DNA from: a virus
Taxonomy: Duplodnaviria > Heunggongvirae > Uroviricota > Caudoviricetes
DNA: 15,311 bases
Strand: one strand, 5' to 3'
Virus record (IMG/VR): IMGVR_UViG_2703718816_000013
Below, one piece after another: positions 757 to 14,152 of the stretch. The position numbers and the translations under genes were made by a program. The notes below the pieces were generated by a model. That model had not been told where the DNA came from and searched no databases. It saw only the letters and a program-made list of their open reading frames with translations. Positions within the stretch are counted from its first letter, which is position 1. Each line of letters starts with the position of its first letter.

Positions 757-897
757 ATGTCGCAAAAATCGCTTATCACCGTCACAATTTGTATGACGGT
801 TATCTTCACTATCTGGATGTTGCACGGTTCACTGTGTGAGTTCCGGCTGAATTTGTGGGGAGCGGAGTTTGCGGCGTTCTTACAGTGTAAGCAGTAG
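757..897 (+). CDS. Hok/Gef-family type I toxin (small membrane peptide, 46 aa); not in the supplied ORF track
   Basis: ATG at 757 is preceded by a strong SD (aaaggagt, 741-748). Translation is MSQKSLITVTICMTVIFTIWMLHGSLCEFRLNLWGAEFAAFLQCKQ: an N-terminal hydrophobic helix followed by SLCE-x-R...E-x-AAF, matching the conserved Hok/Gef/RelF C-terminal signature (Hok: ...SLCEIRYRDGHREVAAF...). Stop TAG is at 895-897. Confidence 0.65.
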   Translation: MSQKSLITVTICMTVIFTIWMLHGSLCEFRLNLWGAEFAAFLQCKQ

Positions 898-1248: not shown

Positions 1249-2451
1249 ATGAAAATCATGAAAAAGGCAAGCAAGCTATTGTTGGCTTTAATGCCGGCAT
1301 TAAGCCTGTCGGTATTTTCTGTCGGGGCGTATGCCAGTGGTTATTCCGTTACACCTGAAACTCTGAATAGTAATGCAATAAAGCATGCGGATTTCTTGAA
1401 AGGTATCGGTGTATATAAACAAGATGGATATCCATTAATTAAGCTTGAGAATGGTAAGGTTATTTCTCTTGACGGGAATACACCAACCTCATTAAATATA
1501 GACGCTGTTTCCGGTAAATATTTGAAATATACCTTAATTGATTATGGTAAGGCTGGCCTGACAGATACCGAGTTAGCTGCTCCAAGGGGAGACATCGTCT
1601 CATATTATGATTACGCGAATGAGACAGCTTATTTTGTAAACACAAAAACCAATCAAATTCTGTTTAGTGCAGATGGCGAAGGAGTTGTCTCGACTGTAGG
1701 CGCTGATGGAAAAACATATTCAAGACATATTCCTGAAATCAGTGAATATATTTATGAAATTAAAATGAAGGCTGTGCAATATGGAGCCACTATTGACACT
1801 GGTCTTTCTGCTGCAGATGTAACAGATATTCACGCCCGTCTGTCATCTCTGGGCACCGGTAAAACTCAGGTTGGTGGCGGGGCAACGGCAGGCGGAGAAA
1901 ACGCCACTGCTGTCGGTTACAACGCCATTGCAAACCATACGAACAGTGTTGCTGTAGGGGCTAACTCTCAGACCACTCGCCCCGATGAAGTTAATGTGGG
2001 GAATCGTGTAATTGGTGGGCTTCGTGATGGTGTTCAGGCTGCGGATGCCGCAACCTATGGTCAGTTAGAGCGCTATCGTATTGCAGAAGAGAATGCCCGT
2101 ATTCAGGGTGATGCACAGACACTGAAGTCTGCTAATACCTACACAGATAACCGGGTCAGTACCCTGGAGCGTAGTACTAATCAGCAATTCCGTCAGTTAC
2201 GTGATGAGGTGGAGAAAAACCGTAAACGTGCAGATGCAGGTATTGCAGGAGCAATGGCGATGACTGCCATTCCTGTTGTTGAGGGTAAAACGTACTCCTT
2301 TGGTATGGCTGCAAGTAACTACCGTGATGAGCAGGCTATCGCAGCAGGTATGCACTTCCGCACCACTGAAAATTCTGCTGTACGTTTGAATGCTTCATGG
2401 GATACCCAGAACGGTTCAGGTGTTGCTGCGGGTATGTCTGTCGGCTGGTAA
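1249..2451 (+). CDS. Trimeric autotransporter adhesin (YadA-like C-terminal anchor; Eib/YadA-type), 400 aa
   Basis: N-terminal signal peptide (MKIMKKASKLLLALMPALSLSVFSVGAYA). Glycine-rich head/neck-like repeats (GGGATAGGENATAVGYNAIAN...SVAVGANSQ), a coiled-coil stalk, and a C-terminal membrane anchor ending ...SFGMAASNYRDEQAIAAGMHFRTTENSAVRLNASWDTQNGSGVAAGMSVGW with a terminal W. Size is comparable to prophage-borne E. coli Eib proteins. Confidence 0.85.
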   Translation: MKIMKKASKLLLALMPALSLSVFSVGAYASGYSVTPETLNSNAIKHADFLKGIGVYKQDGYPLIKLENGKVISLDGNTPTSLNIDAVSGKYLKYTLIDYGKAGLTDTELAAPRGDIVSYYDYANETAYFVNTKTNQILFSADGEGVVSTVGADGKTYSRHIPEISEYIYEIKMKAVQYGATIDTGLSAADVTDIHARLSSLGTGKTQVGGGATAGGENATAVGYNAIANHTNSVAVGANSQTTRPDEVNVGNRVIGGLRDGVQAADAATYGQLERYRIAEENARIQGDAQTLKSANTYTDNRVSTLERSTNQQFRQLRDEVEKNRKRADAGIAGAMAMTAIPVVEGKTYSFGMAASNYRDEQAIAAGMHFRTTENSAVRLNASWDTQNGSGVAAGMSVGW

Positions 2452-2562: not shown

Positions 2563-2940
2563 GTGAGTGAAAAAATTCTCCGGTATATGCAGCGTGTGGT
2601 GAGAAATTCCCGCAACCCTGAATTTATGAATGAAGTTAAAGACGCCTGCTTTAAAAAGCAGGCGTTTTGTTTTGAGGCACCTGATGGCTTTCTGGTGCTG
2701 CGTTCTGTGCTCAGTGCTGATGGTATCCCTTATGTTCTGGTGTTGCTGGGCGTGTGTACGGGGAGTAACAGTGTTGAGCGTTATCTGCCGGAGGTGAAGA
2801 CATTAACCCGTCTGGCTGGCGGACGTTGGGCTGAATTTCATACGGCAAGGCGGGGATTTATCCGGCTGGGAAAACGTCTGGGCTTTGAGCGAATGCCGGA
2901 TGATGAGGATGGCTTCATGGTGTTCAGGATAGCGGTCTGA
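2563..2940 (+). CDS. Hypothetical protein (125 aa from GTG at 2563; alternative ATG start at 2587)
   Basis: Open frame ending at TGA 2938-2940, directly followed by an intrinsic terminator. No recognisable motif by eye and start codon uncertain. Confidence 0.5.
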   Translation: MSEKILRYMQRVVRNSRNPEFMNEVKDACFKKQAFCFEAPDGFLVLRSVLSADGIPYVLVLLGVCTGSNSVERYLPEVKTLTRLAGGRWAEFHTARRGFIRLGKRLGFERMPDDEDGFMVFRIAV

Positions 2941-2993
2941 CTGCCACAGTTTTCATCATCGTGTTTAAACCAACATTGCAATTCACATTCTGA

Positions 2994-3017
2994 CCCTGCT
3001 CCGGCAGGGTTTTTTTA
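2994..3017 (+). terminator. Rho-independent terminator
   Basis: ccctgc (2994-2999) pairs with gcaggg (3004-3009) around a 4-nt loop, followed by a T-run (3010-3016). It sits only a few nt before the RBS of the next gene. Confidence 0.7.
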
Positions 3018-3034
3018 TTATCCAGGGGGCCATT

Positions 3035-3691
3035 ATGGGTGGAAGTAAAGGTGGTGGTGATACCAAAGTAAAACCAACAGCAGCGCAAATAGCACAGGAA
3101 GAAGTGGCTTGGAAAGGGTGGCAGGATTACAAAAATATCCTCCGCCCGGCTGAAGATAACTTCATGGAAAAGGTCGATGACCTGAACAGTGAGCAGCAGT
3201 ACGACAATATTGCTGGCACGACAAATCTGGGGTATCAAAAACAGTTTGGCGAAGCGCGGAAGGAGCTGGCAAGTAATCTCACTCGGTCCGGTGTTGACCC
3301 GTCCAGTGGTCGCTTTAACGCGGTAATGAATGCGAACCAGAGTGATCAGGTAACCGGGCAGATTGACACAACCACACGGGGGCAGGTATCGCAGGCAGAT
3401 AAGTATGTTGCCGGGCTACAGGATGTTGCTGCTCTCGGTTCTGGTCAGAAGGCGGATGCGTTACAGAGTTTTAACTCTCTGGCAGACAGCAGTCTGGCAA
3501 AAGCTAAATCGGATGCACAGGCGGCGTTTACGAAACAGCAGGGGCGAGCCTCTCTTGTTGGCGCTGGTCTGGGTGCGGCAGGTGCATATGCGATGCATAA
3601 GGCTGGCGGTAGCGGAGGAAGTGGCGGTGCTAAAACACCTGGCACTGGCGCTAATGCCATTCAGCATCAGGCTCAGAACTGGAGACTGTGA
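3035..3691 (+). CDS. Hypothetical Gly/Ala/Gln-rich protein (218 aa), first gene of a 4-gene operon
   Basis: ATG 3035 with RBS aggggg (3024-3029). No signal peptide (MGGSKGGGDTK...). C-terminal Gly/Ala-rich tract (GAGLGAAGAYAMHKAGGSGGSGG). Stop TGA at 3689-3691 lies 2 nt before the next start. Confidence 0.7.
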   Translation: MGGSKGGGDTKVKPTAAQIAQEEVAWKGWQDYKNILRPAEDNFMEKVDDLNSEQQYDNIAGTTNLGYQKQFGEARKELASNLTRSGVDPSSGRFNAVMNANQSDQVTGQIDTTTRGQVSQADKYVAGLQDVAALGSGQKADALQSFNSLADSSLAKAKSDAQAAFTKQQGRASLVGAGLGAAGAYAMHKAGGSGGSGGAKTPGTGANAIQHQAQNWRL

Positions 3692-3693
3692 TT

Positions 3694-4140
3694 ATGGAGT
3701 ACGGTAAATACGAAACACTTGCGAGATACGGTTATACCGGAGCAGCCCGCCCTCCGGGGGACTGGCAGACATCCGCAGCGCTGACCCGCCAGCAATACGA
3801 CGACTGGCGCACCAGATATTTACCCCGTGTAGCAAGGCTGGCTGACCTTGGGGAGAACAACAGTCTGATGAATCCACAGCTTGCACGGGTGGGAGGCCTT
3901 GCCACTTCCAGTCTCCGTACAGCGCAGATGGCGCAGGATAACCAGATGGCGAGATACGGGGTAAGCCGCCCGGATAATCCCGACAGTAATACGCTGGGGT
4001 TACGTAATGCCCTGGCAATAGCAGGTGCGAAAAATGGTATCCGTGAAGCCGAACAGGATCGCCAGATGAATATTCTGACGGGGGCTTCTGCACCGGCAAG
4101 ACAGAAACTGAGTGTTGGCGGACAACTGGTGGCAGCGTAA
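3694..4140 (+). CDS. Hypothetical protein (148 aa from ATG 3694; ORF track starts at GTG 3688)
   Basis: RBS ggag (3681-3684) is correctly spaced for ATG 3694 and too close to GTG 3688. Hydrophilic protein with no signal peptide. Confidence 0.65.
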   Translation: MEYGKYETLARYGYTGAARPPGDWQTSAALTRQQYDDWRTRYLPRVARLADLGENNSLMNPQLARVGGLATSSLRTAQMAQDNQMARYGVSRPDNPDSNTLGLRNALAIAGAKNGIREAEQDRQMNILTGASAPARQKLSVGGQLVAA

Positions 4141-4149
4141 GGGGGCAAT

Positions 4150-4422
4150 ATGGGATACGGTTTACTGGATATTGCAAATCAGTCGCGGCGTGAGGCATTA
4201 CAGGGAATAAGTGACGCAGACAGACGACGTACAGAGATTGAGGCATCAAATAAACAACTGGCTGCTCAACAGAAAGCTCAGAAAAAACAGAATATCGGTA
4301 CGGGCATTGGTACGGGGGCCACTATCGGGGCGACTGTTGGTTCAGCAGTACCGGTAGTGGGGACAGCCGTCGGCGCTGTTGCTGGTGCAGTAATTGGCGG
4401 CATTGCAGGCGCTTTGTTTTAA
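4150..4422 (+). CDS. Small protein with C-terminal glycine-zipper hydrophobic segment (90 aa); probable membrane-anchored peptide
   Basis: RBS aaggggg precedes ATG 4150. Charged, coiled N-terminal half, then GTGIGTGATIGATVGSAVPVVGTAVGAVAGAVIGGIAGALF with GxxxG/AxxxG spacing. Confidence 0.7.
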   Translation: MGYGLLDIANQSRREALQGISDADRRRTEIEASNKQLAAQQKAQKKQNIGTGIGTGATIGATVGSAVPVVGTAVGAVAGAVIGGIAGALF

Positions 4423-4432
4423 GGAGTGGTGA

Positions 4433-5698
4433 ATGAGCGGATTTGCACAGGGGTTACTTGCCGGATTCAGCACTGTTGACCAGGCAATGACCCGTCGTAA
4501 GGAGCTTGGTTTGCGAGAAGCACAGCTTGCTCAGCAACAGAAAAATAACGAGCGCGATTTTGAATTTGCGCAGTCTCAGTTTGAACATAATAAAGACGTT
4601 GATCAGCGGAACTTTGATTACAGAGCCAAAGTTGATGACCGCAATTACACACTGCAGGAAAGGGAGTTTAACGCCAACCAGAATTACCGGAATGCGTCGC
4701 TGGGGATGGAACAGCAACGACTCCAGTTGCAGAAATACAACCAGCGACGGCTTGAGTATAACGATATGCTGGCGCGCGATCAGCCTGTGATGGCGGCGCT
4801 GGGAAAAGCGATTGATGCGGGTGACCATGATGCGGCTTCTCATCTGTTCGGTAAATTATCGGACGCCAATCCGCTTAAGATGATGTCAACGGTAGGCTAT
4901 GCTGCGAAAGCGGGTCAGGCCGTGAACAACCTGCAGAAAATCTTTGATGATAAGCCGGACAGGGCGATTGCTTCGCTGAATACCCCGGAAAATCTCGATG
5001 TGCTTTCCGGCGTGTTTGCCCCGGAACTACAACAGCGTATTGGCATGCCTGATTCAACCGGGAAAAAAACGATAAAAGAGGCCAGGATTGGCAGTATCGT
5101 ACCGGCGCAGCAGGAAGGGTACGTACTTATTGGCCTTGATCTCACATACAGCGATGGCTCCACCGCGCATAAACCTGTAACAGAATACGGCAGTGCGCAC
5201 CCTGATGATCAAACCGTGCTGGCGATACCCGTTGATAAGGCTATCGCTCAGGTCAGGGATCGCAGCAAATTTGCAGAGATATCGAAAAATTATGGTTATT
5301 TTATGCCGAAGCAGCAGGGACTTTCTCTGAAAGAGCTTCAGAAGGGGGCCAGCAACGTAGCGGCGGACGCGATCAAGAATGGCGGTAATGCTCAGGCTGC
5401 GGTGGATGAATATTATGCTGCGACTGGTTCACAACCGCATCAACAGAAAATTCAGCAACAAAAACTTCAGCAACAGGTTATCAACTGGGCGGGAGATGAT
5501 CCTGATAAGCTGTCATTTGCCAGAAATGTAGCGGCCCGTCAGCCTGAAATGCTGGAACCTCAGAATCAGAAATTGCTGGAGAACGGGTATGCGAATTTTC
5601 TCCGTATTCAAAAGGCCAGGGGGGAACAGGCCAGAGATGAAAGTGCTTCATCTGCATCTCAGTTTATCCGTGGACTGAAACAGAATTACGCCCAGTAA
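4433..5698 (+). CDS. Hypothetical coiled-coil, Q-rich protein (421 aa)
   Basis: RBS aggag (4422-4426) precedes ATG 4433, 10 nt after the upstream stop. Q/E/R-rich heptad-like N-terminal region and a QQKIQQQKLQQQ tract. Followed by a strong terminator. Confidence 0.7.
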   Translation: MSGFAQGLLAGFSTVDQAMTRRKELGLREAQLAQQQKNNERDFEFAQSQFEHNKDVDQRNFDYRAKVDDRNYTLQEREFNANQNYRNASLGMEQQRLQLQKYNQRRLEYNDMLARDQPVMAALGKAIDAGDHDAASHLFGKLSDANPLKMMSTVGYAAKAGQAVNNLQKIFDDKPDRAIASLNTPENLDVLSGVFAPELQQRIGMPDSTGKKTIKEARIGSIVPAQQEGYVLIGLDLTYSDGSTAHKPVTEYGSAHPDDQTVLAIPVDKAIAQVRDRSKFAEISKNYGYFMPKQQGLSLKELQKGASNVAADAIKNGGNAQAAVDEYYAATGSQPHQQKIQQQKLQQQVINWAGDDPDKLSFARNVAARQPEMLEPQNQKLLENGYANFLRIQKARGEQARDESASSASQFIRGLKQNYAQ

Positions 5699-5731
5699 TT
5701 CACGATATTCCATTAATACCATTTCCTGATG

Positions 5732-5756
5732 CCCGGCCATTGTGCCGGGTTTTTTT
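5732..5756 (+). terminator. Rho-independent terminator between the 4-gene operon and the giant gene
   Basis: cccggc (5732-5737) pairs with gccggg (5744-5749), a perfect 6-bp GC stem with a 6-nt loop, followed by a T-run (5750-5756). It lies inside the N-terminal extension of the ORF-track call (5729 start), arguing for a downstream true start. Confidence 0.75.
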
Positions 5757-5767
5757 ATGGAGTCTGT

Positions 5768-8700
5768 ATGGCCTATTCAGAGGAACAGCGTCCTGAGGCG
5801 CAACTCGGTAACCAGAATCGTAACAGCCTGAACATTCAGCAACCCGGCGAAACTGACAGCTATGAAGCATTTTTCTCTGATCCGAATCGCTGGAAGGATA
5901 ACAGTACGTCGTTCAGCCTGGGCGATGTATTGCCAACAATGGGTAAAGGTTTCGCCCAGTCCGTCCGGGGAACAGGGGAAATGGCCCGTGGACTCGGTGA
6001 TGCGATGATTCAGAGCCCGGTAAAAACAGGGGCGCGTATTTTAAATGAGTTCAGCCGTATGGGGCTGCCGGGTGTCGCAACTGTGCAGGATATTTTTGCC
6101 GGTGGCAGCAGGGGGGCTGATGAGGTCATCGATACCCTGCCTGATGGCAAAAACGCGGTTACTGATACTGTCGGTAAAGGTCTGAAGGCAACCGGTAAGG
6201 CTGTCAGTGATGGTGCTGAAGCCACTGATGAATGGCTGACCGGTAAGATGTCGCCGGGTGCAGTTCGTGCGCTGAATACGCCGATGACCGAAGGCTATGA
6301 TGATTCTGCGGTCTGGGTGGCGAAGGGTGTAAACCTGATTGGTGCGCTTGTACCTGATATGGTTGTTGGCGGTGTGGCTAAAAAGGTGGGTGATGTCACA
6401 CTGCGAAAAATGCTGACCGCCGGGCTGGAGAAAAAATACATCGCGGCAGGGATGCAGCCGGAAAGAGCCACGGCACTGGCAGCAGAAGCTGTCGATAAAA
6501 AAATGCCGGATTTATTCCAGGCGGGCCTGATCACCCATTCCACAGCCAGTGCACAGGGGCAGAGTGCAATGGCGGCAGCAGATGCTGTTCTTAATGCGGA
6601 TTACTCTGAGCTGGCGCAGTCACCGAAATTTCAGCAGACGTTTTTGTCCATTGACGCCGACCCGCAGCACGCACAGCTTACTGATCGCCAGAAAATGGAT
6701 CTGGCAAAAGAGCGTGTTGCCGATGAGGTGCGCGCGCAGCTGGCAACCGATCCTGAATTGCTGGCTGTGAATGCCATGGCGGCAAAACTGGGTGACGCAC
6801 AACTGTTTAATCTGGTGACACGAGGCACAGCGAAGACCGTTAAAAGCGGCATTGTCAGAAATGCCACGGAACAGGGGGCGATTAATGCGGCGCAGGGCGG
6901 CTATTCACGCTATCAGGAAAACACGGCATTGCGTGAGACCGCCGGAATGGATGTGTCACCGTGGGAGGGCGTGGCTGACGCAACGATCGAAGGTGCAGCC
7001 TTTGGTGCTGCGATGGGGGCTCCATCCGGTGCGGTTGCCGGATATCGTGGCAGACGTCAGGCCGCAGAAGAAACCGCCATGCGTGATGCTGAAACCGTGC
7101 AGCAGGACGACGCAGCCCCGCAACCAGAATCTGTTGATCCGGTGGCGCAGCAGCGTGAATCCATGCAGGGCATGAATCGCGAGCAGCTTCTGGAGCAGTA
7201 TGCTGATGCGGATATGGCAACAGAGGGTGACGCATCCGCAGCTCATCGCCGGGAAGCTGCCAGCCAGTTGTTGAATGAACTGGACGAACAGGCGAAGCGA
7301 CAGGCTGTGATGAATGAGCTGAAGGCGAAGCCGCGTTCTGAACTGCTTGAGGAATACCGCAGACTCAGCCAGAAAGAGGGGCGCACCGAGACTGAAGAAC
7401 AACAGTTTCAGGCAATACGAGAAGTCATTCGCCCACAACAGGAAGTGACGCCGGAAGCACAGTCACAGCCTGAAAATGCGGAGGATGGTAACGGGAGCAT
7501 TTACCCGACGGTGCGGTTCCGGGACCCGAATGAAGTCCGCATTGAAATTAACGGGAATGGTGCGTCCAGACCAGCGGAACGCATTGAAAAGGTGCGCCCG
7601 GACAACCGTTATTTCACGGATGAGAAAAGCGCCATGGGGAGTGATGTTTTCCGTAATGCCGCCGCCACCGGCCTGAAACCGTCCGTAGTGAAGAAAGGCG
7701 AGAATCAGTATGCCGTTGAAATGGATAATCCTGCGTTCTCTGAAGATGTGGCAACGGAAACCATTAACACCCTGGCTGACGGAGAGCGTATTGCTGATGC
7801 TGACCCGATGGAGCAGCCCGCGTTCATGCGTGACCCGCGATTCCGTGGTTTCACGGGGGATGATACGGAGGTACAGGCCCGCCTTGCCCGTGGCAATGCG
7901 CCGACGGCGGAGGAGCTTGTACGTTCACAGATGGCTGAAGGTGATGCCGGTCCGACAGCACAGGAGTTAACTGAGCGTCCACGCCTGCCCGCTCCCGGCG
8001 ATATTCATCCCGGACAGGGATATCCGTTACCGGGAGAGGTGGCGCGTACGCCGGATGAGAATCAGGCCGGACGTGGTGGTCGTTTTACCACAACCGGTGA
8101 GGTTAAGGGCCAGAGTTTCCAGAAAGGACAAGCTCCGGCACCGGAAAACGCCGCTGGTCGCCAGGGGGAAACACTCGAGGGTGAAATGGTTCGTCGTGGT
8201 CTGCCGTCACCGGATGCGCAGAACGCGACAGCACCGGTACGTGAAGGGCTACCGGCTCCTGACATTGCGCGTAATGTTCGTATGCCTCAGCCTGAATCAC
8301 TTCCCCGCACTGTACGGGACTCACTGCCTGAGCTTGCACAGCAGGCAGAAGTACGCCGACAGGCCGGAGGAAATCGTGACATCCCGCAGCCTGAGACAAT
8401 CGCACCTGAATCTGAAACAACTGTCTCTACTGACAGGGAAGCTACCGTGCGCGGAGGTGAAGTCAGGGGCAAAAAAATTGAAGACTTTGGCGAGGAAATT
8501 AAAGGGGCAGCCAAACACCGTTATGCACAGCTTGCTGAAACACTGGGTAAAACGCTGGAAGACAGGGATTATGCCACGCAGCCGCTGAGCAAACTGTTCC
8601 CGAAACCGGACTACGCAAAACTGGCGAACGAAGGTGCCGATGCTGACACTCTGGCAATGATAGCGCTGTATCGTAGCGATATTCCGGCGAAGACGAAACA

Positions 8701-14152: not shown

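What the first reader, a model, noticed from the sequence alone, without database searches (positions are those of the whole stretch)
3035..14152. Terminator-bracketed five-gene block (four small proteins plus a 2.8-k-aa giant) with no recognisable family: candidate undescribed system
Four tightly packed, probably translationally coupled genes (3035-5698; intergenic gaps of 2-10 nt, each with its own SD) encode a Gly/Ala-rich protein, a hydrophilic 148-aa protein, a glycine-zipper tail-anchored peptide and a Q-rich coiled-coil protein. None has a signal peptide. An intrinsic terminator sits just upstream of the block (2994-3017), and a second strong terminator (5732-5756) separates it from an 8.4-kb ORF. 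The block lies in a cargo position between a lom/hok/adhesin cluster and an IS. Small Gly-rich and coiled-coil proteins followed by one giant multidomain protein recall podovirus internal-virion/ejection modules and the injected polyvalent proteins of phages and conjugative elements, but the neighbourhood (lom, hok, adhesin) is not a head-morphogenesis module. It may therefore be a cargo effector, anti-defence or defence cassette.
Basis: partly seen in the sequence, partly recalled or inferred. Interest (0 to 1): 0.8.

Follow-up and report, generated by a model that had tools for sequence, protein, structure and literature searches.

The report
Stx-phage DNA-ejection protein module
These genes are the conserved operon of proteins that short-tailed Shiga-toxin phages pack inside the capsid, most likely to deliver their DNA, ending in a giant multi-enzyme protein. 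The module has already been studied genetically and by virion proteomics, and it is not a cargo or defence cassette.

Summary
The five ORFs, their ribosome-binding sites and the two terminator-like hairpins are real.

- **Identity.** The block is 95-99.8% identical to the late region of 933W/Sp5/phi24B-type Stx phages. It equals Sp5 ORF76-80 and phi24B gp51-gp47.
- **Published genetics and proteomics.** ORF79 (421 aa) and ORF80 (the giant) are essential for infectious particles but not for DNA packaging. All five proteins are detected in purified phi24B virions.
- **Recognisable families.** The giant carries Pfam LPD5, LPD1, MuF_C and LPD38, which mark it as a "polyvalent protein".
- **Conservation.** The same gene order recurs in Salmonella, Citrobacter-type, Aeromonas and Vibrio phages. 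There it sits directly after the tail genes, so lom/hok/adhesin are morons inserted upstream. A sixth gene (2563-2940) always precedes the block, so the upstream terminator lies inside the module.
- **New here.**
  - There are no cysteines in 3,671 residues.
  - The 90-aa protein matches the C-terminus of P22 ejection protein gp7.
  - The giant's N-terminus matches the membrane-binding N-terminal domain of N4 virion RNA polymerase.
  - The giant's middle is swappable between lineages.
  - The hairpin after the 421-aa gene is conserved in position.

Verdict: an internal-virion ejection module with an injected polyvalent giant. It is already known and of low to moderate interest.

The parts
2563..2940 (+). 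Conserved sixth gene (125 aa; Sp5 ORF75/ECs1237; phrog_610). It has 3 Cys, is not seen in the held phi24B virion MS list, and is dispensable in Sp5. It is probably a non-virion accessory or assembly factor.
   Evidence: A homologue lies immediately upstream of the 218-aa gene in all 79 related loci, including Aeromonas (42% identity) and Vibrio (25%). PHROG match. Size mapping. Cys count. No profile link to the GP4 GNAT protein or to P22 gp14.
2992..3018 (+). Terminator-like hairpin plus T-run between the sixth gene and protein A. It is lineage-specific (E. coli and Salmonella types only).
   Evidence: It is conserved in L002, L047, L052, L056 and L058. It is absent where the two genes are 7-11 nt apart (Aeromonas, Vibrio and others).
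3035..3691 (+). Protein A (218 aa; Sp5 ORF76; phi24B gp51). Gly/Ala-rich, Cys-free virion protein whose deletion strongly reduces infectivity. Candidate small (gp7/gp14-sized) ejection protein.
   Evidence: phrog_611. Virion MS gave 523 peptide-spectrum matches (PSMs). Phenotype. Profile match to the GP4 277-aa virion-associated protein: 95.9%, E 6e-9, with shuffle control. The match to the mature N-terminus of P22 gp7 is weak: 21.6%, E 1e-3.
3694..4140 (+). Protein B (148 aa; Sp5 ORF77; phi24B gp50). Hydrophilic, Cys-free virion protein, dispensable in Sp5. Possible paralogue of A.
   Evidence: phrog_596. Virion MS gave 129 PSMs, 83 of them in the batch sample. Dispensable. A-versus-B profile comparison: 75.5%, E 2.4e-5.
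4150..4422 (+). Protein C (90 aa; Sp5 ORF78; the phi24B 86-aa 'bacteriocin homologue'). It has an N-terminal helix and a C-terminal glycine-zipper membrane segment ending in ...SLF/ALF. It is homologous to the C-terminus of P22 ejection protein gp7.
   Evidence: Hydrophobic segment at 59-90. Sub-threshold Gly-zipper Pfam hits. Profile match to P22 gp7 residues 189-229: 92.9%, E 3.8e-7. Shuffled controls scored at most 22.4 against 45.6. Low-level virion MS signal, 13 PSMs.
4433..5698 (+). Protein D (421 aa; Sp5 ORF79/ECs1241; phi24B gp48). An essential, Cys-free, mostly helical virion protein. Candidate periplasmic-tunnel component.
   Evidence: Essential, yet DNA is still packaged. Virion MS gave 1634 PSMs. 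AF2 model: pLDDT 70, helix 14-129, small beta domain 213-266. No PDB fold match. No profile link to gp20, N4 gp51 or the GP4 509-aa protein.
5731..5757 (+). Terminator-like hairpin plus T-run between D and the giant gene. Its position is conserved across divergent lineages.
   Evidence: Hairpin plus U-run immediately after the D stop codon in window, L002, L058, L059, L063, L003, L078, L074, L070 and L072, with unrelated stem sequences.
5768..14152 (+). Giant polyvalent protein (2794 aa; Sp5 ORF80/ECs1242; phi24B gp47). It is essential, Cys-free, abundant in virions and invisible in cryo-EM maps.
   Evidence: phrog_616. Pfam domains. Essential. Virion MS gave 10962 PSMs. Proposed as an ejection protein by the phi24B authors. 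The 5729-5767 extension would add 2 Cys to a protein that otherwise has none.
5942..7042 (+). Giant N-terminal domain (about aa 59-425). It is the part conserved in all relatives and is related to the lipid-binding N-terminal domain of N4 vRNAP. It contains a hydrophobic stretch at 182-200 and a Gly-zipper-like stretch at 406-433.
   Evidence: Profile A5 against N4 gp50 residues 1-700: 95.5%, E 1.3e-8, aligning giant 262-425 with vRNAP 299-444. A wider alignment covers 59-416 with 101-444. Shuffle control. The domain lies at the N-terminus of 61 giant representative proteins (1511-4665 aa). Properties of the N4 N-terminal domain are from PMC13434306.
8918..10087 (+). LPD5 (aa 1051-1200) followed by a CLCA_X-like zincin region (aa 1182-1437, HEWFH at 1284) that overlaps LPD1 (aa 1361-1440).
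   Evidence: Pfam LPD5 at 1e-44 and LPD1 at 1e-23. NCBIfam CLCA_X at E 1e-43, but 149.6 bits is below the curated cut-off of 260. HEW(F/W)H is conserved in the 6 lineages that have this region.
10205..10687 (+). Second conserved domain of about 160 aa, with RHExxxH (HEIIHH at 1551) and a downstream (E/G)E(F/V)xAH motif. It is present in nearly all related giants, sometimes twice. Its function is unknown; it could be a metal site.
   Evidence: phmmer alignment across 11 giant lineages. The only Pfam signal is a weak Peptidase_M76 hit at E 0.2.
11015..11284 (+). MuF_C domain (aa 1750-1839). This is the PBECR predicted RNase fold of Iyer et al. 2017, not a metallopeptidase.
   Evidence: Pfam PF18819 at 1.2e-17. 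Definition taken from PMC5512222.
11450..14149 (+). Conserved C-terminal module of about 900 aa, which includes LPD38 (aa 2477-2682; nt 13196-13813). It is the shared C-terminal end of phage polyvalent giants and has no solved structural relative.
   Evidence: 26% identity, E 2e-66, to the C-terminus of the GP4 giant. LPD38 is present in the Vibrio, Aeromonas and GP4 giants. Many residues are invariant. AF2 model: pLDDT 79.8, pTM 0.75. No PDB hit at or below 1e-3. 67 hits in the BFVD library of predicted viral protein structures, with TM-scores up to 0.87, to C-terminal segments of giant phage proteins.

Best explanation
The region is the internal-virion (ejection-protein) operon of a short-tailed 933W/Sp5/phi24B-type phage. 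It has six genes: a small non-virion accessory gene (2563-2940), then A, B, C and D, then a 2794-aa polyvalent giant.

**Shown in close relatives (published work)**
- A, B, D and the giant are packed in the virion at roughly ten to a few tens of copies each. C is detected at low level.
- None of them is visible in the cryo-EM reconstruction of capsid and tail.
- D and the giant are needed for infectious particles but not for head formation or DNA packaging. Loss of A cripples infection. B, C and the upstream gene are dispensable in K-12.

**Shown here**
- The six-gene order is conserved from E. coli to Aeromonas and Vibrio phages, where it sits immediately after the nozzle and needle genes.
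- All five virion proteins lack cysteine.
- C is homologous to the membrane-inserting C-terminus of P22 gp7.
- A is homologous to a virion-associated protein of Ralstonia phage GP4.
- The giant's N-terminal domain is related to the lipid-binding N-terminal domain of N4 vRNAP.
- The giant has a fixed N-terminal domain and a fixed LPD38-containing C-terminal module around a middle that differs between lineages.

**Inferred mechanism**
1. After receptor binding and needle release, the proteins leave the capsid unfolded through the tail, ahead of the DNA.
2. A and C insert into the outer membrane.
3. D, with its roughly 17-nm helix, builds the periplasmic conduit.
4. The giant's N-terminal domain anchors in the inner membrane.
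5. The rest of the giant enters the cytoplasm. There its enzymes act early, either by self-processing or on host targets. These enzymes are a CLCA-like HEWFH zincin, LPD5, a second RHExxxH domain and a PBECR RNase-like domain.
6. The hairpin after D probably lowers or stabilises transcripts so that the giant is made in smaller amounts than A-D.
For: **Identity with studied phages**
- 186 phage records match at 80-99.8%.
- ORF sizes map one to one onto Sp5 ORF75-80 and onto the phi24B genes.

**Genetics**
-.

**Virion proteomics (PSM counts)**
- gp47 10962, gp48 1634, gp51 523, gp50 129, and the 86-aa ORF 13.
- I normalised batch PSMs per residue to 12 portal copies. That gives about 23 gp47, 37 gp48, 48 gp50 and 32 gp51 copies. 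The same arithmetic gives 6 for the nozzle, whose expected number is 6.
- gp47 is absent from the cryo-EM maps and the authors propose it as an ejection protein.

**Synteny**
- Vibrio 1.205.O and Aeromonas phiARM81mr.
- Every one of the viral contigs with enough flank.
- The sixth gene is present in all 79 loci that hold gene A.
- GP4 and N4 show the same tail genes, then small proteins, then giant layout. P22 has needle-14-7-20-16.

**Cysteine avoidance**
- 0 Cys in 3671 residues, and 0 in P22 gp7/20/16, N4 gp50-52 and GP4 giant/509/277.
- 6 Cys in 178,507 residues of 61 related giants.
- This trait is described for ejection operons of N4-like (Schitoviridae) phages in PMC11445570.

**Homology links**
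-, with shuffle controls.
- The N4 N-terminal domain is lipid-binding and part of the inner-membrane complex.

**Giant domains**
-.
- Variable middles in relatives: methyltransferase plus ParB, SLT plus LPD3, and ART, RelA/SpoT or methylase.
Against: - No experiment shows that any of these proteins is ejected or forms a channel.
- Mondal et al. saw no tail-fibre antibody labelling on delta-ORF79 and delta-ORF80 particles and concluded "tail formation". A pure ejection role does not predict that result.
- D shows no sequence or fold similarity to P22 gp20, T7 gp15, N4 gp51/DEV gp72 or the GP4 509-aa protein.
- The links to P22 gp7 and to the N4 vRNAP N-terminal domain are short profile-versus-single-sequence matches (35 and 146 columns). 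The aligned segments are glycine- and alanine-rich.
- A direct phmmer search with the giant's N-terminus reached no N4-like vRNAP.
- B and C are dispensable, whereas P22 gp7 is essential (established knowledge).
- The CLCA_X match is below NCBIfam's curated cut-off.
- The role assignments of A, C and D rest on size, order and analogy only.
Confidence: 0.75

Rival explanations
1. Tail-assembly or tail-structural proteins, as Mondal et al. 2016 read them. On this view D and the giant are needed to build or stabilise the short tail, for example as an internal tail core, plug or assembly chaperone. The giant's predicted ATPase-like region would drive an energy-requiring assembly step.
For: - Delta-ORF79 and delta-ORF80 particles package DNA and have normal heads but do not bind anti-tail-fibre antibody.
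- The module follows the tail genes directly in relatives.
- The Gly-zipper of C resembles segments of tape-measure and tail-lysin PHROG families.
Against: - The phi24B tail was modelled completely (portal, two adaptors, nozzle, fibres, needle) without any of these proteins, although they are abundant in the same sample.
- No AAA+ or other ATPase Pfam domain was found in the giant.
- The immuno-EM negatives were "data not shown".
- Cysteine avoidance and the gp7 and N4 N-terminal-domain links fit translocated proteins.
- The two roles are not exclusive. An internal core that plugs the portal could be needed for stable tail attachment.
Confidence: 0.15
2. One reading: a mobile cargo cassette (effector, anti-defence or defence system) carried between morons and an IS, and unrelated to virion structure.
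For: - The giant carries domain types typical of injected conflict effectors: a zincin, a PBECR RNase fold and LPD domains.
- Its middle region is exchanged between lineages.
- The GP4 homologue is annotated as DarB-like.
- Flanking morons and an IS are present in this window.
Against: - The gene order is strictly conserved and adjacent to tail genes in phages without morons.
- Two of the genes are essential for infectivity on K-12.
- All the products are virion proteins.
- There are no system-level hits to the PADLOC defence-system library.
- The conserved parts (giant N- and C-terminal modules, A-D) behave as core rather than accessory genes.
Confidence: 0.03
3. Internal capsid core or DNA-organising proteins. 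On this view their main role is to fill or organise the T=9 capsid interior or to assist packaging, and they are not translocated.
For: - The proteins are abundant inside the capsid but invisible in the maps.
- phi24B packs 57.7 kb in a T=9 shell, whereas N4's record is 70 kb. That N4's capsid is also T=9 is from my own knowledge and was not read here. If so, the shell has room for protein.
Against: - Deletion mutants still package nuclease-resistant DNA at wild-type levels and have normal heads.
- Cysteine avoidance across 178,507 residues of related giants is unexplained by a purely internal role.
- C and the giant's N-terminal domain contain membrane-type segments.
Confidence: 0.05

Closest known systems
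Sp5 (VT2-Sakai) ORF75-ORF80 / phi24B gp51-gp47 / 933W late-region genes (Sepvirinae)
   Same: This is the same module. It has 92-99.8% nucleotide identity, identical gene order and near-identical sizes of 125/133, 218, 148, 83/90, 421 and 2793/2794 aa.
   Different: In this window an extra hok-like ORF and a YadA-type adhesin sit between lom and the module, and an IS481-family element lies downstream. The protein C variant here is 90 aa rather than 83 aa.
P22 ejection proteins gp7, gp20 and gp16 (with gp14 upstream)
   Same: - The position is the same, directly after the needle gene.
- The sizes are graded in the same way: about 220 aa, then about 420-470 aa, then the largest.
- All are cysteine-free.
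- C matches the gp7 C-terminal glycine zipper to the last residue.
- The A N-terminus resembles the mature gp7 N-terminus, though weakly.
   Different: - The gp7 functions appear split over A and C, with an extra protein B.
- No detectable homology links D to gp20 or the giant to gp16.
- The largest protein is 2794 aa with enzyme domains, against 609 aa in P22.
- C is dispensable, whereas gp7 is essential (established knowledge).
N4/DEV ejection operon: gp52/gp73, gp51/gp72 and gp50/gp71 (vRNAP)
   Same: - The virion module is syntenic: portal, N4-family capsid protein, tube, nozzle, small membrane protein, mid-size helical protein, then a cysteine-free giant of about 3000 aa.
- The giant is invisible in virion maps in both systems.
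- The giant's N-terminal domain is related to the vRNAP N-terminal domain.
- Iyer et al. already class N4 vRNAP among polyvalent proteins.
   Different: - The giant has no RNA-polymerase domains.
- Its C-terminal LPD38 module is not found in N4 gp50.
- The operon has four or five small genes instead of two.
- The phage is temperate and lambdoid and uses host RNAP with Q antitermination (established knowledge).
T7 internal core proteins gp14, gp15 and gp16
   Same: The functional analogy is an outer-membrane pore, a periplasmic tunnel and a large inner-membrane or cytoplasmic protein with an enzymatic domain. The three are encoded consecutively and packed in the capsid (PMC8954989).
   Different: No sequence or fold similarity was detected. 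This giant has no lytic transglycosylase domain, although the GP4 homologue has an SLT domain.
Polyvalent proteins of phages and conjugative elements (Iyer et al. 2017), including P1 DarB
   Same: Several unrelated effector-type domains sit in one giant polypeptide: LPD5, LPD1, MuF_C/PBECR, LPD38 and an HExxH zincin. The gene lies among virion genes, and delivery with the DNA is predicted.
   Different: Here the protein is essential for making infectious particles and has conserved N- and C-terminal structural modules. It is therefore more than a dispensable anti-restriction cargo like DarB. It has no methyltransferase or helicase domains.

Membership tests
Sepvirinae (933W/Sp5/phi24B) late-region module ORF75-80 | Near-identical DNA, and the same order and sizes of the six genes | tested here: met
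   megablast found 186 records at 80-99.8% identity, each covering the whole query. Sizes map onto Sp5 Table S1 and the phi24B annotation.
Podophage ejection-protein (ejectosome) operon | Encoded on the same strand directly downstream of the tail hub and needle genes, as consecutive genes ending in the largest | tested here: met
   Directly adjacent in Vibrio 1.205.O and Aeromonas phiARM81mr. In this window the module is separated from the tail genes only by lom, hok and adhesin morons.
Podophage ejection-protein (ejectosome) operon | Proteins present in the mature virion but not part of the capsid shell or tail | not testable with these tools
   Published for 95%-identical phi24B. All five proteins appear in the virion MS, and gp47 is absent from the maps. 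The authors discuss only gp47. Not measured for this phage.
Podophage ejection-protein (ejectosome) operon | Required for infectivity but not for head assembly or DNA packaging | not testable with these tools
   Published for Sp5. ORF79 and ORF80 are essential with packaging intact, ORF76 deletion reduces infectivity, and ORF75, 77 and 78 are dispensable.
Podophage ejection-protein (ejectosome) operon | Strong avoidance of cysteine | tested here: met
   0 of 3671 residues here. 0 in P22 gp7/20/16, N4 gp50-52 and GP4 giant/509/277. 6 of 178,507 residues in 61 related giants. The trait is described in PMC11445570.
Podophage ejection-protein (ejectosome) operon | Sequence or fold homology to characterised ejection proteins | tested here: inconclusive
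   Positive for C against the P22 gp7 C-terminus (92.9%) and for the giant N-terminal domain against the N4 vRNAP N-terminal domain (95.5%). Weak for A against gp7 (21.6%). Negative for D against gp20, gp51 and the PDB.
Podophage ejection-protein (ejectosome) operon | Ejected into the host and assembled into a trans-envelope channel | not testable with these tools
   No experiment exists for this phage group. This step is inferred only.
Polyvalent proteins (Iyer et al. 2017) | Two or more unrelated effector or LPD domains in one polypeptide | tested here: met
   Pfam LPD38 at 5e-48, LPD5 at 1e-44, LPD1 at 1e-23 and MuF_C at 1e-17, all above the gathering scores.
Polyvalent proteins (Iyer et al. 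2017) | Zincin-like metallopeptidase with HExxH | tested here: inconclusive
   HEWFH at residue 1284 lies inside a CLCA_X-like region (E 1e-43, but 149.6 bits against a curated cut-off of 260). The motif is conserved in 6 lineages. The Pfam metallopeptidase models for polyvalent proteins did not hit.
Polyvalent proteins (Iyer et al. 2017) | Gene neighbourhood of virion or late genes (phage type) | tested here: met
N4-like virion RNA polymerase | Single-subunit RNAP core (Pfam N4_RNAP_helical, vRNAP_dom, vRNAP_dom_2, vRNAP_plug) | tested here: not met
   These four models hit N4 gp50 and none hits the giant. phmmer with N4 gp50 finds none of the related giants.
Known anti-phage defence systems (PADLOC library) | Match of the gene set to a defence-system model set | tested here: not met
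   The only hit is the Gly-zipper of the 90-aa protein to LeoB positions 402-472 (E 1e-8). The other five proteins have no hit.

The most novel reading that the evidence does not exclude
The six-gene module may define a distinct and widespread type of ejectosome, found in prophages and phages of Enterobacterales, Aeromonadales, Vibrionales, Xanthomonas and, through GP4, Burkholderiales.

In this type, the largest component would be a modular delivery chassis. It would combine a membrane-binding N-terminal domain shared with N4 vRNAP and a structurally unprecedented C-terminal module of about 900 aa containing LPD38. Between them, lineages would swap enzyme cassettes: zincin plus RNase-like domains here, and methyltransferase/ParB, transglycosylase, ADP-ribosyltransferase or RelA/SpoT elsewhere.

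On this reading N4 vRNAP is one specialised derivative of an older family of injected giants. Short-tailed Stx phages would inject a protease/RNase-type enzyme set into E. coli with their DNA. The conserved hairpin after gene D would set the stoichiometry.
Probability: 0.4. Interest if true: 0.5.

Novelty: already known. Interest (0 to 1): 0.27.

Why it matters
Short-tailed Stx phages spread Shiga toxin genes, and how they deliver DNA through the E. coli envelope is still unresolved. This module is the best candidate for that machinery.

If the giant also injects a protease and an RNase-like enzyme, that would bear on host takeover, host range and the lysogenisation of new strains.

For the genome scan, the practical result is negative. 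The block is a known, conserved structural module of a well-studied phage group and not a new defence or cargo system.

The analysis yields modest, testable refinements:
- The module has six genes, not five.
- Cysteine avoidance is family-wide.
- There are sequence links to P22 gp7 and to the N4 vRNAP N-terminal domain.
- The middle of the giant is swappable between lineages.
- Two annotation points in the phi24B preprint look mistaken: the MuF-C domain called a metallopeptidase, and the 86-aa "bacteriocin" dismissed as a contaminant.

Tried and rejected
1. **Homology of D to known tunnel proteins.** Profile comparison with P22 gp20, N4 gp51 and the GP4 509-aa protein gave probabilities below 2%. 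Pfam and NCBIfam found nothing. An AF2 model (pLDDT 70) searched with Foldseek against the PDB gave nothing at or below 1e-3.
2. **Fold of the giant's C-terminal module.** The model is confident (pTM 0.75) but has no PDB relative. The BFVD library of predicted viral protein structures returned only other uncharacterised phage giants.
3. **Sequence search of the giant's central 900 aa against the PDB.** No hits.
4. **Direct phmmer from the giant's N-terminus to N4-like vRNAPs.** None of the 99 representative proteins is a vRNAP. The N4 link therefore exists only at profile level.
5. **The idea that the upstream 125-aa gene is a GNAT-type acyltransferase that modifies the invariant MGK/GG N-terminus of A.** The idea was prompted by the GP4 acyl-CoA N-acyltransferase gene and P22 gp14 at the equivalent position. 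There is no profile similarity to either and no Pfam hit, so I dropped it.
6. **Defence-system reading.** The PADLOC library found only a Gly-zipper match.
7. **Known RNA families in the window.** None at gathering score.
8. **First protein search with D alone.** It returned only E. coli sequences at or above 79% identity and was useless for diversity. I repeated it with a profile of distant relatives.
9. **The AAA+ ATPase (COG1483) reported for ORF80 by Mondal et al.** No ATPase family was found by Pfam or NCBIfam.
Full report
**1. What is in the sequence**

The window holds, on the plus strand:
- the 3' part of lom (1-525; Pfam Ail_Lom);
- a 46-aa ORF (757-897) whose sequence looks Hok-like to me; no profile search was run on it;
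- a YadA-type trimeric autotransporter adhesin (1249-2451);
- a 125-aa ORF (2563-2940);
- four tightly spaced ORFs, which I call A (3035-3691, 218 aa), B (3694-4140, 148 aa), C (4150-4422, 90 aa) and D (4433-5698, 421 aa);
- a giant ORF.

An IS481-family transposase follows on the minus strand (14241-15311).

The giant ORF is open from 5729. The start annotated in near-identical phages is 5768, giving 2794 aa. That start has a GGAG ribosome-binding site and lies downstream of the hairpin.

Gaps between A, B, C and D are 2, 9 and 10 nt, each with a Shine-Dalgarno sequence.

Terminator-like hairpins with runs of seven T lie at 2992-3011 and 5731-5750. The window as a whole is not enriched for such sites (18 against 14.7 +/- 4.3 in shuffles).

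**2. Identity**

The A-D segment matches 186 phage records over its full length at 80-99.8% identity. Almost all are Stx-converting, Escherichia or Shigella phages. The best match is phiSTEC1589-Stx1c at 99.8%, and phi24B is at 94.9%. phi24B belongs to Sepvirinae, genus Traversvirus.

Table S1 of Mondal et al. lists Sp5 ORF75 (133 aa), ORF76 (218), ORF77 (148), ORF78 (83), ORF79 (421) and ORF80 (2793). These correspond one to one with the window genes.

**3. What is already published on this module**

Mondal et al. 2016 (PMC5155283) deleted these genes one at a time.
- ORF79 and ORF80 are essential for plaque formation and lysogenisation and can be complemented in trans.
- Mutant particles still contain nuclease-resistant DNA and have normal heads, but they were not labelled by anti-tail-fibre antibody. 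The authors concluded "tail formation".
- Delta-ORF76 has strongly reduced infectivity.
- ORF75, 77 and 78 are dispensable.

Bubenchikov et al. 2026 (bioRxiv 10.64898/2026.04.10.717836) solved the phi24B virion. It has a T=9 capsid, portal, two adaptor rings, nozzle, six fibres and a needle, and it is closest to Ralstonia phage GP4. By mass spectrometry they found the giant (their gp47) to be abundant yet invisible in the maps, and they proposed it as an encapsidated ejection protein.

Their main text never mentions the neighbouring genes. Their supplementary table nevertheless shows peptide-spectrum matches for all of them:

| phi24B protein | Window gene | PSMs |
|---|---|---|
| gp48 | D | 1634 |
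| gp51 | A | 523 |
| gp50 | B | 129 |
| 86-aa ORF | C | 13 |

I normalised the batch-sample counts per residue to 12 portal copies. That gives roughly 23 copies of the giant, 37 of D, 48 of B and 32 of A. The same arithmetic returns 6 for the nozzle, whose expected number is 6. These are rough figures of my own. The authors' Table 1 is an image that I could not read.

The authors set the 86-aa protein aside as a contaminant on the strength of its "bacteriocin" annotation alone.

**4. Recognisable families**

The giant has Pfam LPD5 (aa 1051-1200), LPD1 (1361-1440), MuF_C (1750-1839) and LPD38 (2477-2682), all far above the gathering scores. These are the signature domains of the "polyvalent proteins" of Iyer et al. 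2017. That paper lists LPD5 among potentially enzymatic domains and defines MuF-C as a PBECR (predicted RNase fold) domain. The preprint's description of MuF-C as a peptidoglycan-degrading metallopeptidase therefore looks mistaken.

NCBIfam CLCA_X aligns to aa 1182-1437 at E 1e-43, although the score is below the curated cut-off. This region contains HEWFH at residue 1284, and the motif is conserved as HEW(F/W)H in six lineages.

A second domain of about 160 aa (aa 1480-1640) carries RHExxxH and a downstream (E/G)E(F/V)xAH motif. It is present in nearly all related giants, sometimes twice. Its function is unknown.

A, B, C and D have their own PHROG families of unknown function. C gives sub-threshold glycine-zipper hits.

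**5. Conservation and context**

A and D each have distant relatives in about 100 Vibrio phages, and A also has one in Aeromonas phage phiARM81mr.

In Vibrio phage 1.205.O and in phiARM81mr the order is: terminase, portal, capsid, adaptors, nozzle, needle or tip fibre, a small gene, A, B, C, D, and a giant of 3130-3190 aa. No morons interrupt this order. Pairwise identities are 22-48%.

Among 79 viral contigs recovered with a D profile, every locus with enough flank has A-B-C-D-giant in the same order and strand. This holds down to 23% identity for D.

The 125-aa gene has a homologue immediately upstream of A in all 79 loci that hold A. The module therefore has six genes.

The hairpin at 2992-3011 lies between two conserved members. 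It exists only in the E. coli and Salmonella lineages. Elsewhere the two genes are 7-11 nt apart.

In contrast, a hairpin plus U-run directly after the D stop codon recurs in at least ten divergent lineages with unrelated stem sequences.

D relatives occur in prophage regions of Citrobacter, Edwardsiella, many Aeromonas species and Xanthomonas, and in Salmonella.

GP4 has the analogous layout: virion-associated 277-aa and 509-aa proteins followed by a 3224-aa "DarB-like" giant, after its tail fibres. N4 has portal, capsid, gp54, gp53, gp52 (150 aa), gp51 (644 aa) and gp50 (vRNAP, 3500 aa). P22 has needle, gp14, gp7, gp20 and gp16.

The "cargo position" in the window is therefore the result of lom, hok and adhesin morons inserted upstream of a core structural module.

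**6. Links to characterised ejection proteins**

- The C family matches the last 41 residues of P22 gp7 at 92.9% probability, E 3.8e-7. Both end in the same glycine zipper and terminal SLF.
- The A family matches the GP4 277-aa virion-associated protein at 95.9%, E 6e-9. It matches the mature N-terminus of gp7 only weakly, at 21.6%.
- A and B may be paralogues (75.5%).
- A profile of the giant's N-terminus matches N4 vRNAP residues 299-444 at 95.5%, E 1.3e-8. A wider alignment puts giant 59-416 against vRNAP 101-444. By my own offset arithmetic from that alignment, the giant's only strongly hydrophobic stretch (182-200) then falls opposite the N4 helices predicted to span the membrane (224-278).
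- Local-shuffle controls stay well below the real scores for all three main links.
- The N4 N-terminal domain binds lipid nanodiscs and is proposed to form the inner-membrane complex together with gp51 (PMC13434306).

D shows no similarity to gp20, gp51 or the GP4 509-aa protein. Its AF2 model has pLDDT 70, a 116-residue helix, a small beta domain and a C-terminal helical bundle. It has no PDB relative.

A direct phmmer search from the giant's N-terminus finds 99 representative clusters. Sixty-one of them are proteins of 1511-4665 aa, and in the listed alignments the domain lies near the N-terminus. None is an N4-type vRNAP.

**7. Cysteine avoidance**

A, B, C, D and the giant contain no cysteine in 3671 residues.
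- P22 gp7, gp20 and gp16, N4 gp50-52, and the GP4 giant, 509-aa and 277-aa proteins also have none.
- Neighbouring proteins that are not candidates for ejection do contain cysteine: the 125-aa ORF has 3, the GP4 PAPS-reductase-like protein has 5 and the GP4 acyltransferase has 4.
- The 61 long relatives of the giant hold 6 cysteines in 178,507 residues.

Lokareddy et al. 2024 describe exactly this suppression for the ejection operon of N4-like (Schitoviridae) phages. They relate it to passage through the periplasm.

At the 0.54% cysteine content of five other late-region proteins of the near-identical phage L001 (14 of 2576 residues), the chance of zero in 3671 residues is about 2e-9. This is my own arithmetic.

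**8. Architecture of the giant**

Only the N-terminal domain and parts of the middle are found in all relatives.

The last 900 aa or so are 26% identical to the GP4 giant (E 2e-66) and strongly conserved in the Vibrio and Salmonella types, with many invariant polar residues. LPD38 is present near the C-terminus of the Vibrio, Aeromonas and GP4 giants as well.

The AF2 model of this module is confident (pLDDT 79.8, pTM 0.75). It has no PDB relative. It matches 67 C-terminal segments of phage giants in the BFVD library of predicted viral protein structures.

The domains found with this module in relatives differ between lineages:
- a methyltransferase plus a ddrB-ParB domain in Aeromonas;
- an SLT transglycosylase plus LPD3 in GP4;
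- LT_GEWL lysozyme-type, RelA/SpoT or methylase annotations in others;
- ADP-ribosyltransferase and methyltransferase domains in others.

This is the pattern of a fixed delivery scaffold carrying exchangeable enzymes.

**9. Most likely mechanism**

The module encodes the phage's internal, ejected proteins.

*Shown for close relatives:* virion location, dispensability for packaging and requirement for infectivity.

*Shown here:* conserved six-gene synteny next to the tail genes, cysteine avoidance, the gp7, GP4 and N4 N-terminal-domain links, and the modular giant.

*Inferred by analogy with P22, T7 and N4/DEV:*
1. After needle release the proteins exit unfolded through the tail.
2. A and C insert into the outer membrane.
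3. D forms the periplasmic conduit.
4. The giant's N-terminal domain anchors in the inner membrane.
5. The enzyme-bearing remainder reaches the cytoplasm and acts by self-processing or on host targets, as Iyer et al. argue for zincin-containing polyvalent proteins.
6. The conserved hairpin after D probably tunes the ratio of the giant to A-D. In lambdoid members, Q-modified RNA polymerase would read through it (established knowledge of lambdoid late transcription; not tested here).

The main counter-evidence is the missing tail-fibre labelling on delta-ORF79 and delta-ORF80 particles. This leaves room for an additional role in tail attachment or stability.

**10. Comparison and novelty**

The thing itself is already known. 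It is the Sp5 ORF75-80 / phi24B gp47-gp51 module, with published genetics and proteomics, and its giant belongs to a described protein class.

It works like the P22, T7 and N4 ejectosome operons. It is not a member of the N4 vRNAP family, because the RNAP domains are absent. Membership in the gp20/gp15 family could not be shown for D.

Points not stated in the papers I read:
- the six-gene extent of the module and its breadth of conservation;
- the virion presence of A, B, C and D being treated as part of one module;
- the gp7 and N4 N-terminal-domain links;
- family-wide cysteine avoidance;
- the conserved hairpin after D.

These are refinements, not a new kind of system. Interest is low to moderate.

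Noticed in passing
It lies immediately upstream of the 218-aa gene in all 79 related loci. It is dispensable in Sp5 (ORF75), is not seen in the held part of the phi24B virion MS table, and has no recognisable family.
   Followed up: yes
window 5731-5757; also L003, L058, L059, L063, L070, L072, L074, L078 just after the D homologue: An intrinsic-terminator-like hairpin plus U-run directly after the 421-aa gene is conserved in position across very divergent phages, although the stem sequences differ. It may be an attenuator or a transcript-end element that sets the ratio of the giant to the small proteins.
   Followed up: partly
window 757-897: A 46-aa ORF (MSQKSLITVTICMTVIFTIWMLHGSLCEFRLNLWGAEFAAFLQCKQ) resembles Hok/Gef membrane toxins. 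No Rfam hok/sok family reached the gathering score anywhere in the window.
   Followed up: partly
window 1249-2451 (GC 0.33 at 1001-1500): A 400-aa YadA-type trimeric autotransporter adhesin with its own signal-like N-terminus sits in a low-GC stretch between lom and the module. phi24B lacks it at this place. It is a likely moron of possible virulence interest.
   Followed up: no
window 14241-15311 (minus strand): An IS481-family transposase gene starts 89 nt after the giant's stop codon and runs off the window. The 99.8%-identical phage PQ600364.1 has small phage ORFs there instead, so this prophage copy carries an IS insertion or replacement downstream of the module.
   Followed up: no
L001 (PQ600364.1, phiSTEC1589-Stx1c): Product names in this GenBank record look displaced or wrong. 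For example, "portal protein" is on the 218-aa gene, "N4-family major capsid protein" is on the 90-aa gene, and "terminase large subunit" is on the adhesin-sized gene. The record's labels should not be propagated.
   Followed up: partly
bioRxiv 10.64898/2026.04.10.717836 (phi24B), text and supplement: The preprint calls the MuF-C domain a metallopeptidase that degrades peptidoglycan, whereas Iyer et al. define it as a PBECR RNase-fold domain. It also discards the 86-aa "bacteriocin homologue" as a contaminant, although it is the gp7-C-terminus-like member of the module. It does not discuss gp48, gp50 or gp51, which its own MS table shows in virions.
   Followed up: partly
window 10205-10687 (giant aa 1480-1640) and homologues: A domain of about 160 aa with RHExxxH and a downstream (E/G)E(F/V)xAH motif is present in almost all related giants, and twice in the giants of three loci (L061, L070, L072). 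The spacing and motifs recall gluzincin-type metal sites, but no family model matches.
   Followed up: partly
L004 (Aeromonas phage phiARM81mr) 17555-29113 and 6876-8509: The giant gene is annotated from 19541, but the reading frame is open from 17555, right after the D homologue, so the deposited start may be too far downstream. Separately, a retron-type reverse transcriptase and a "23S rRNA-intervening sequence protein" gene are inserted among the tail genes of this phage.
   Followed up: no
window 3035-4140: Proteins A and B share a common N-terminal core (hhalign 75.5%, E 2.4e-5). Both align to the same part of the GP4 277-aa protein, which suggests a tandem duplication.
   Followed up: partly
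window 4150-4422: The glycine-zipper tail of the 90-aa protein also matches internal segments of tape-measure, tail-lysin and other large phage proteins in PHROGs. It also matches LeoB positions 402-472 in the PADLOC defence-system library. These hits are probably shared membrane-insertion segments or a composition effect.
   Followed up: no
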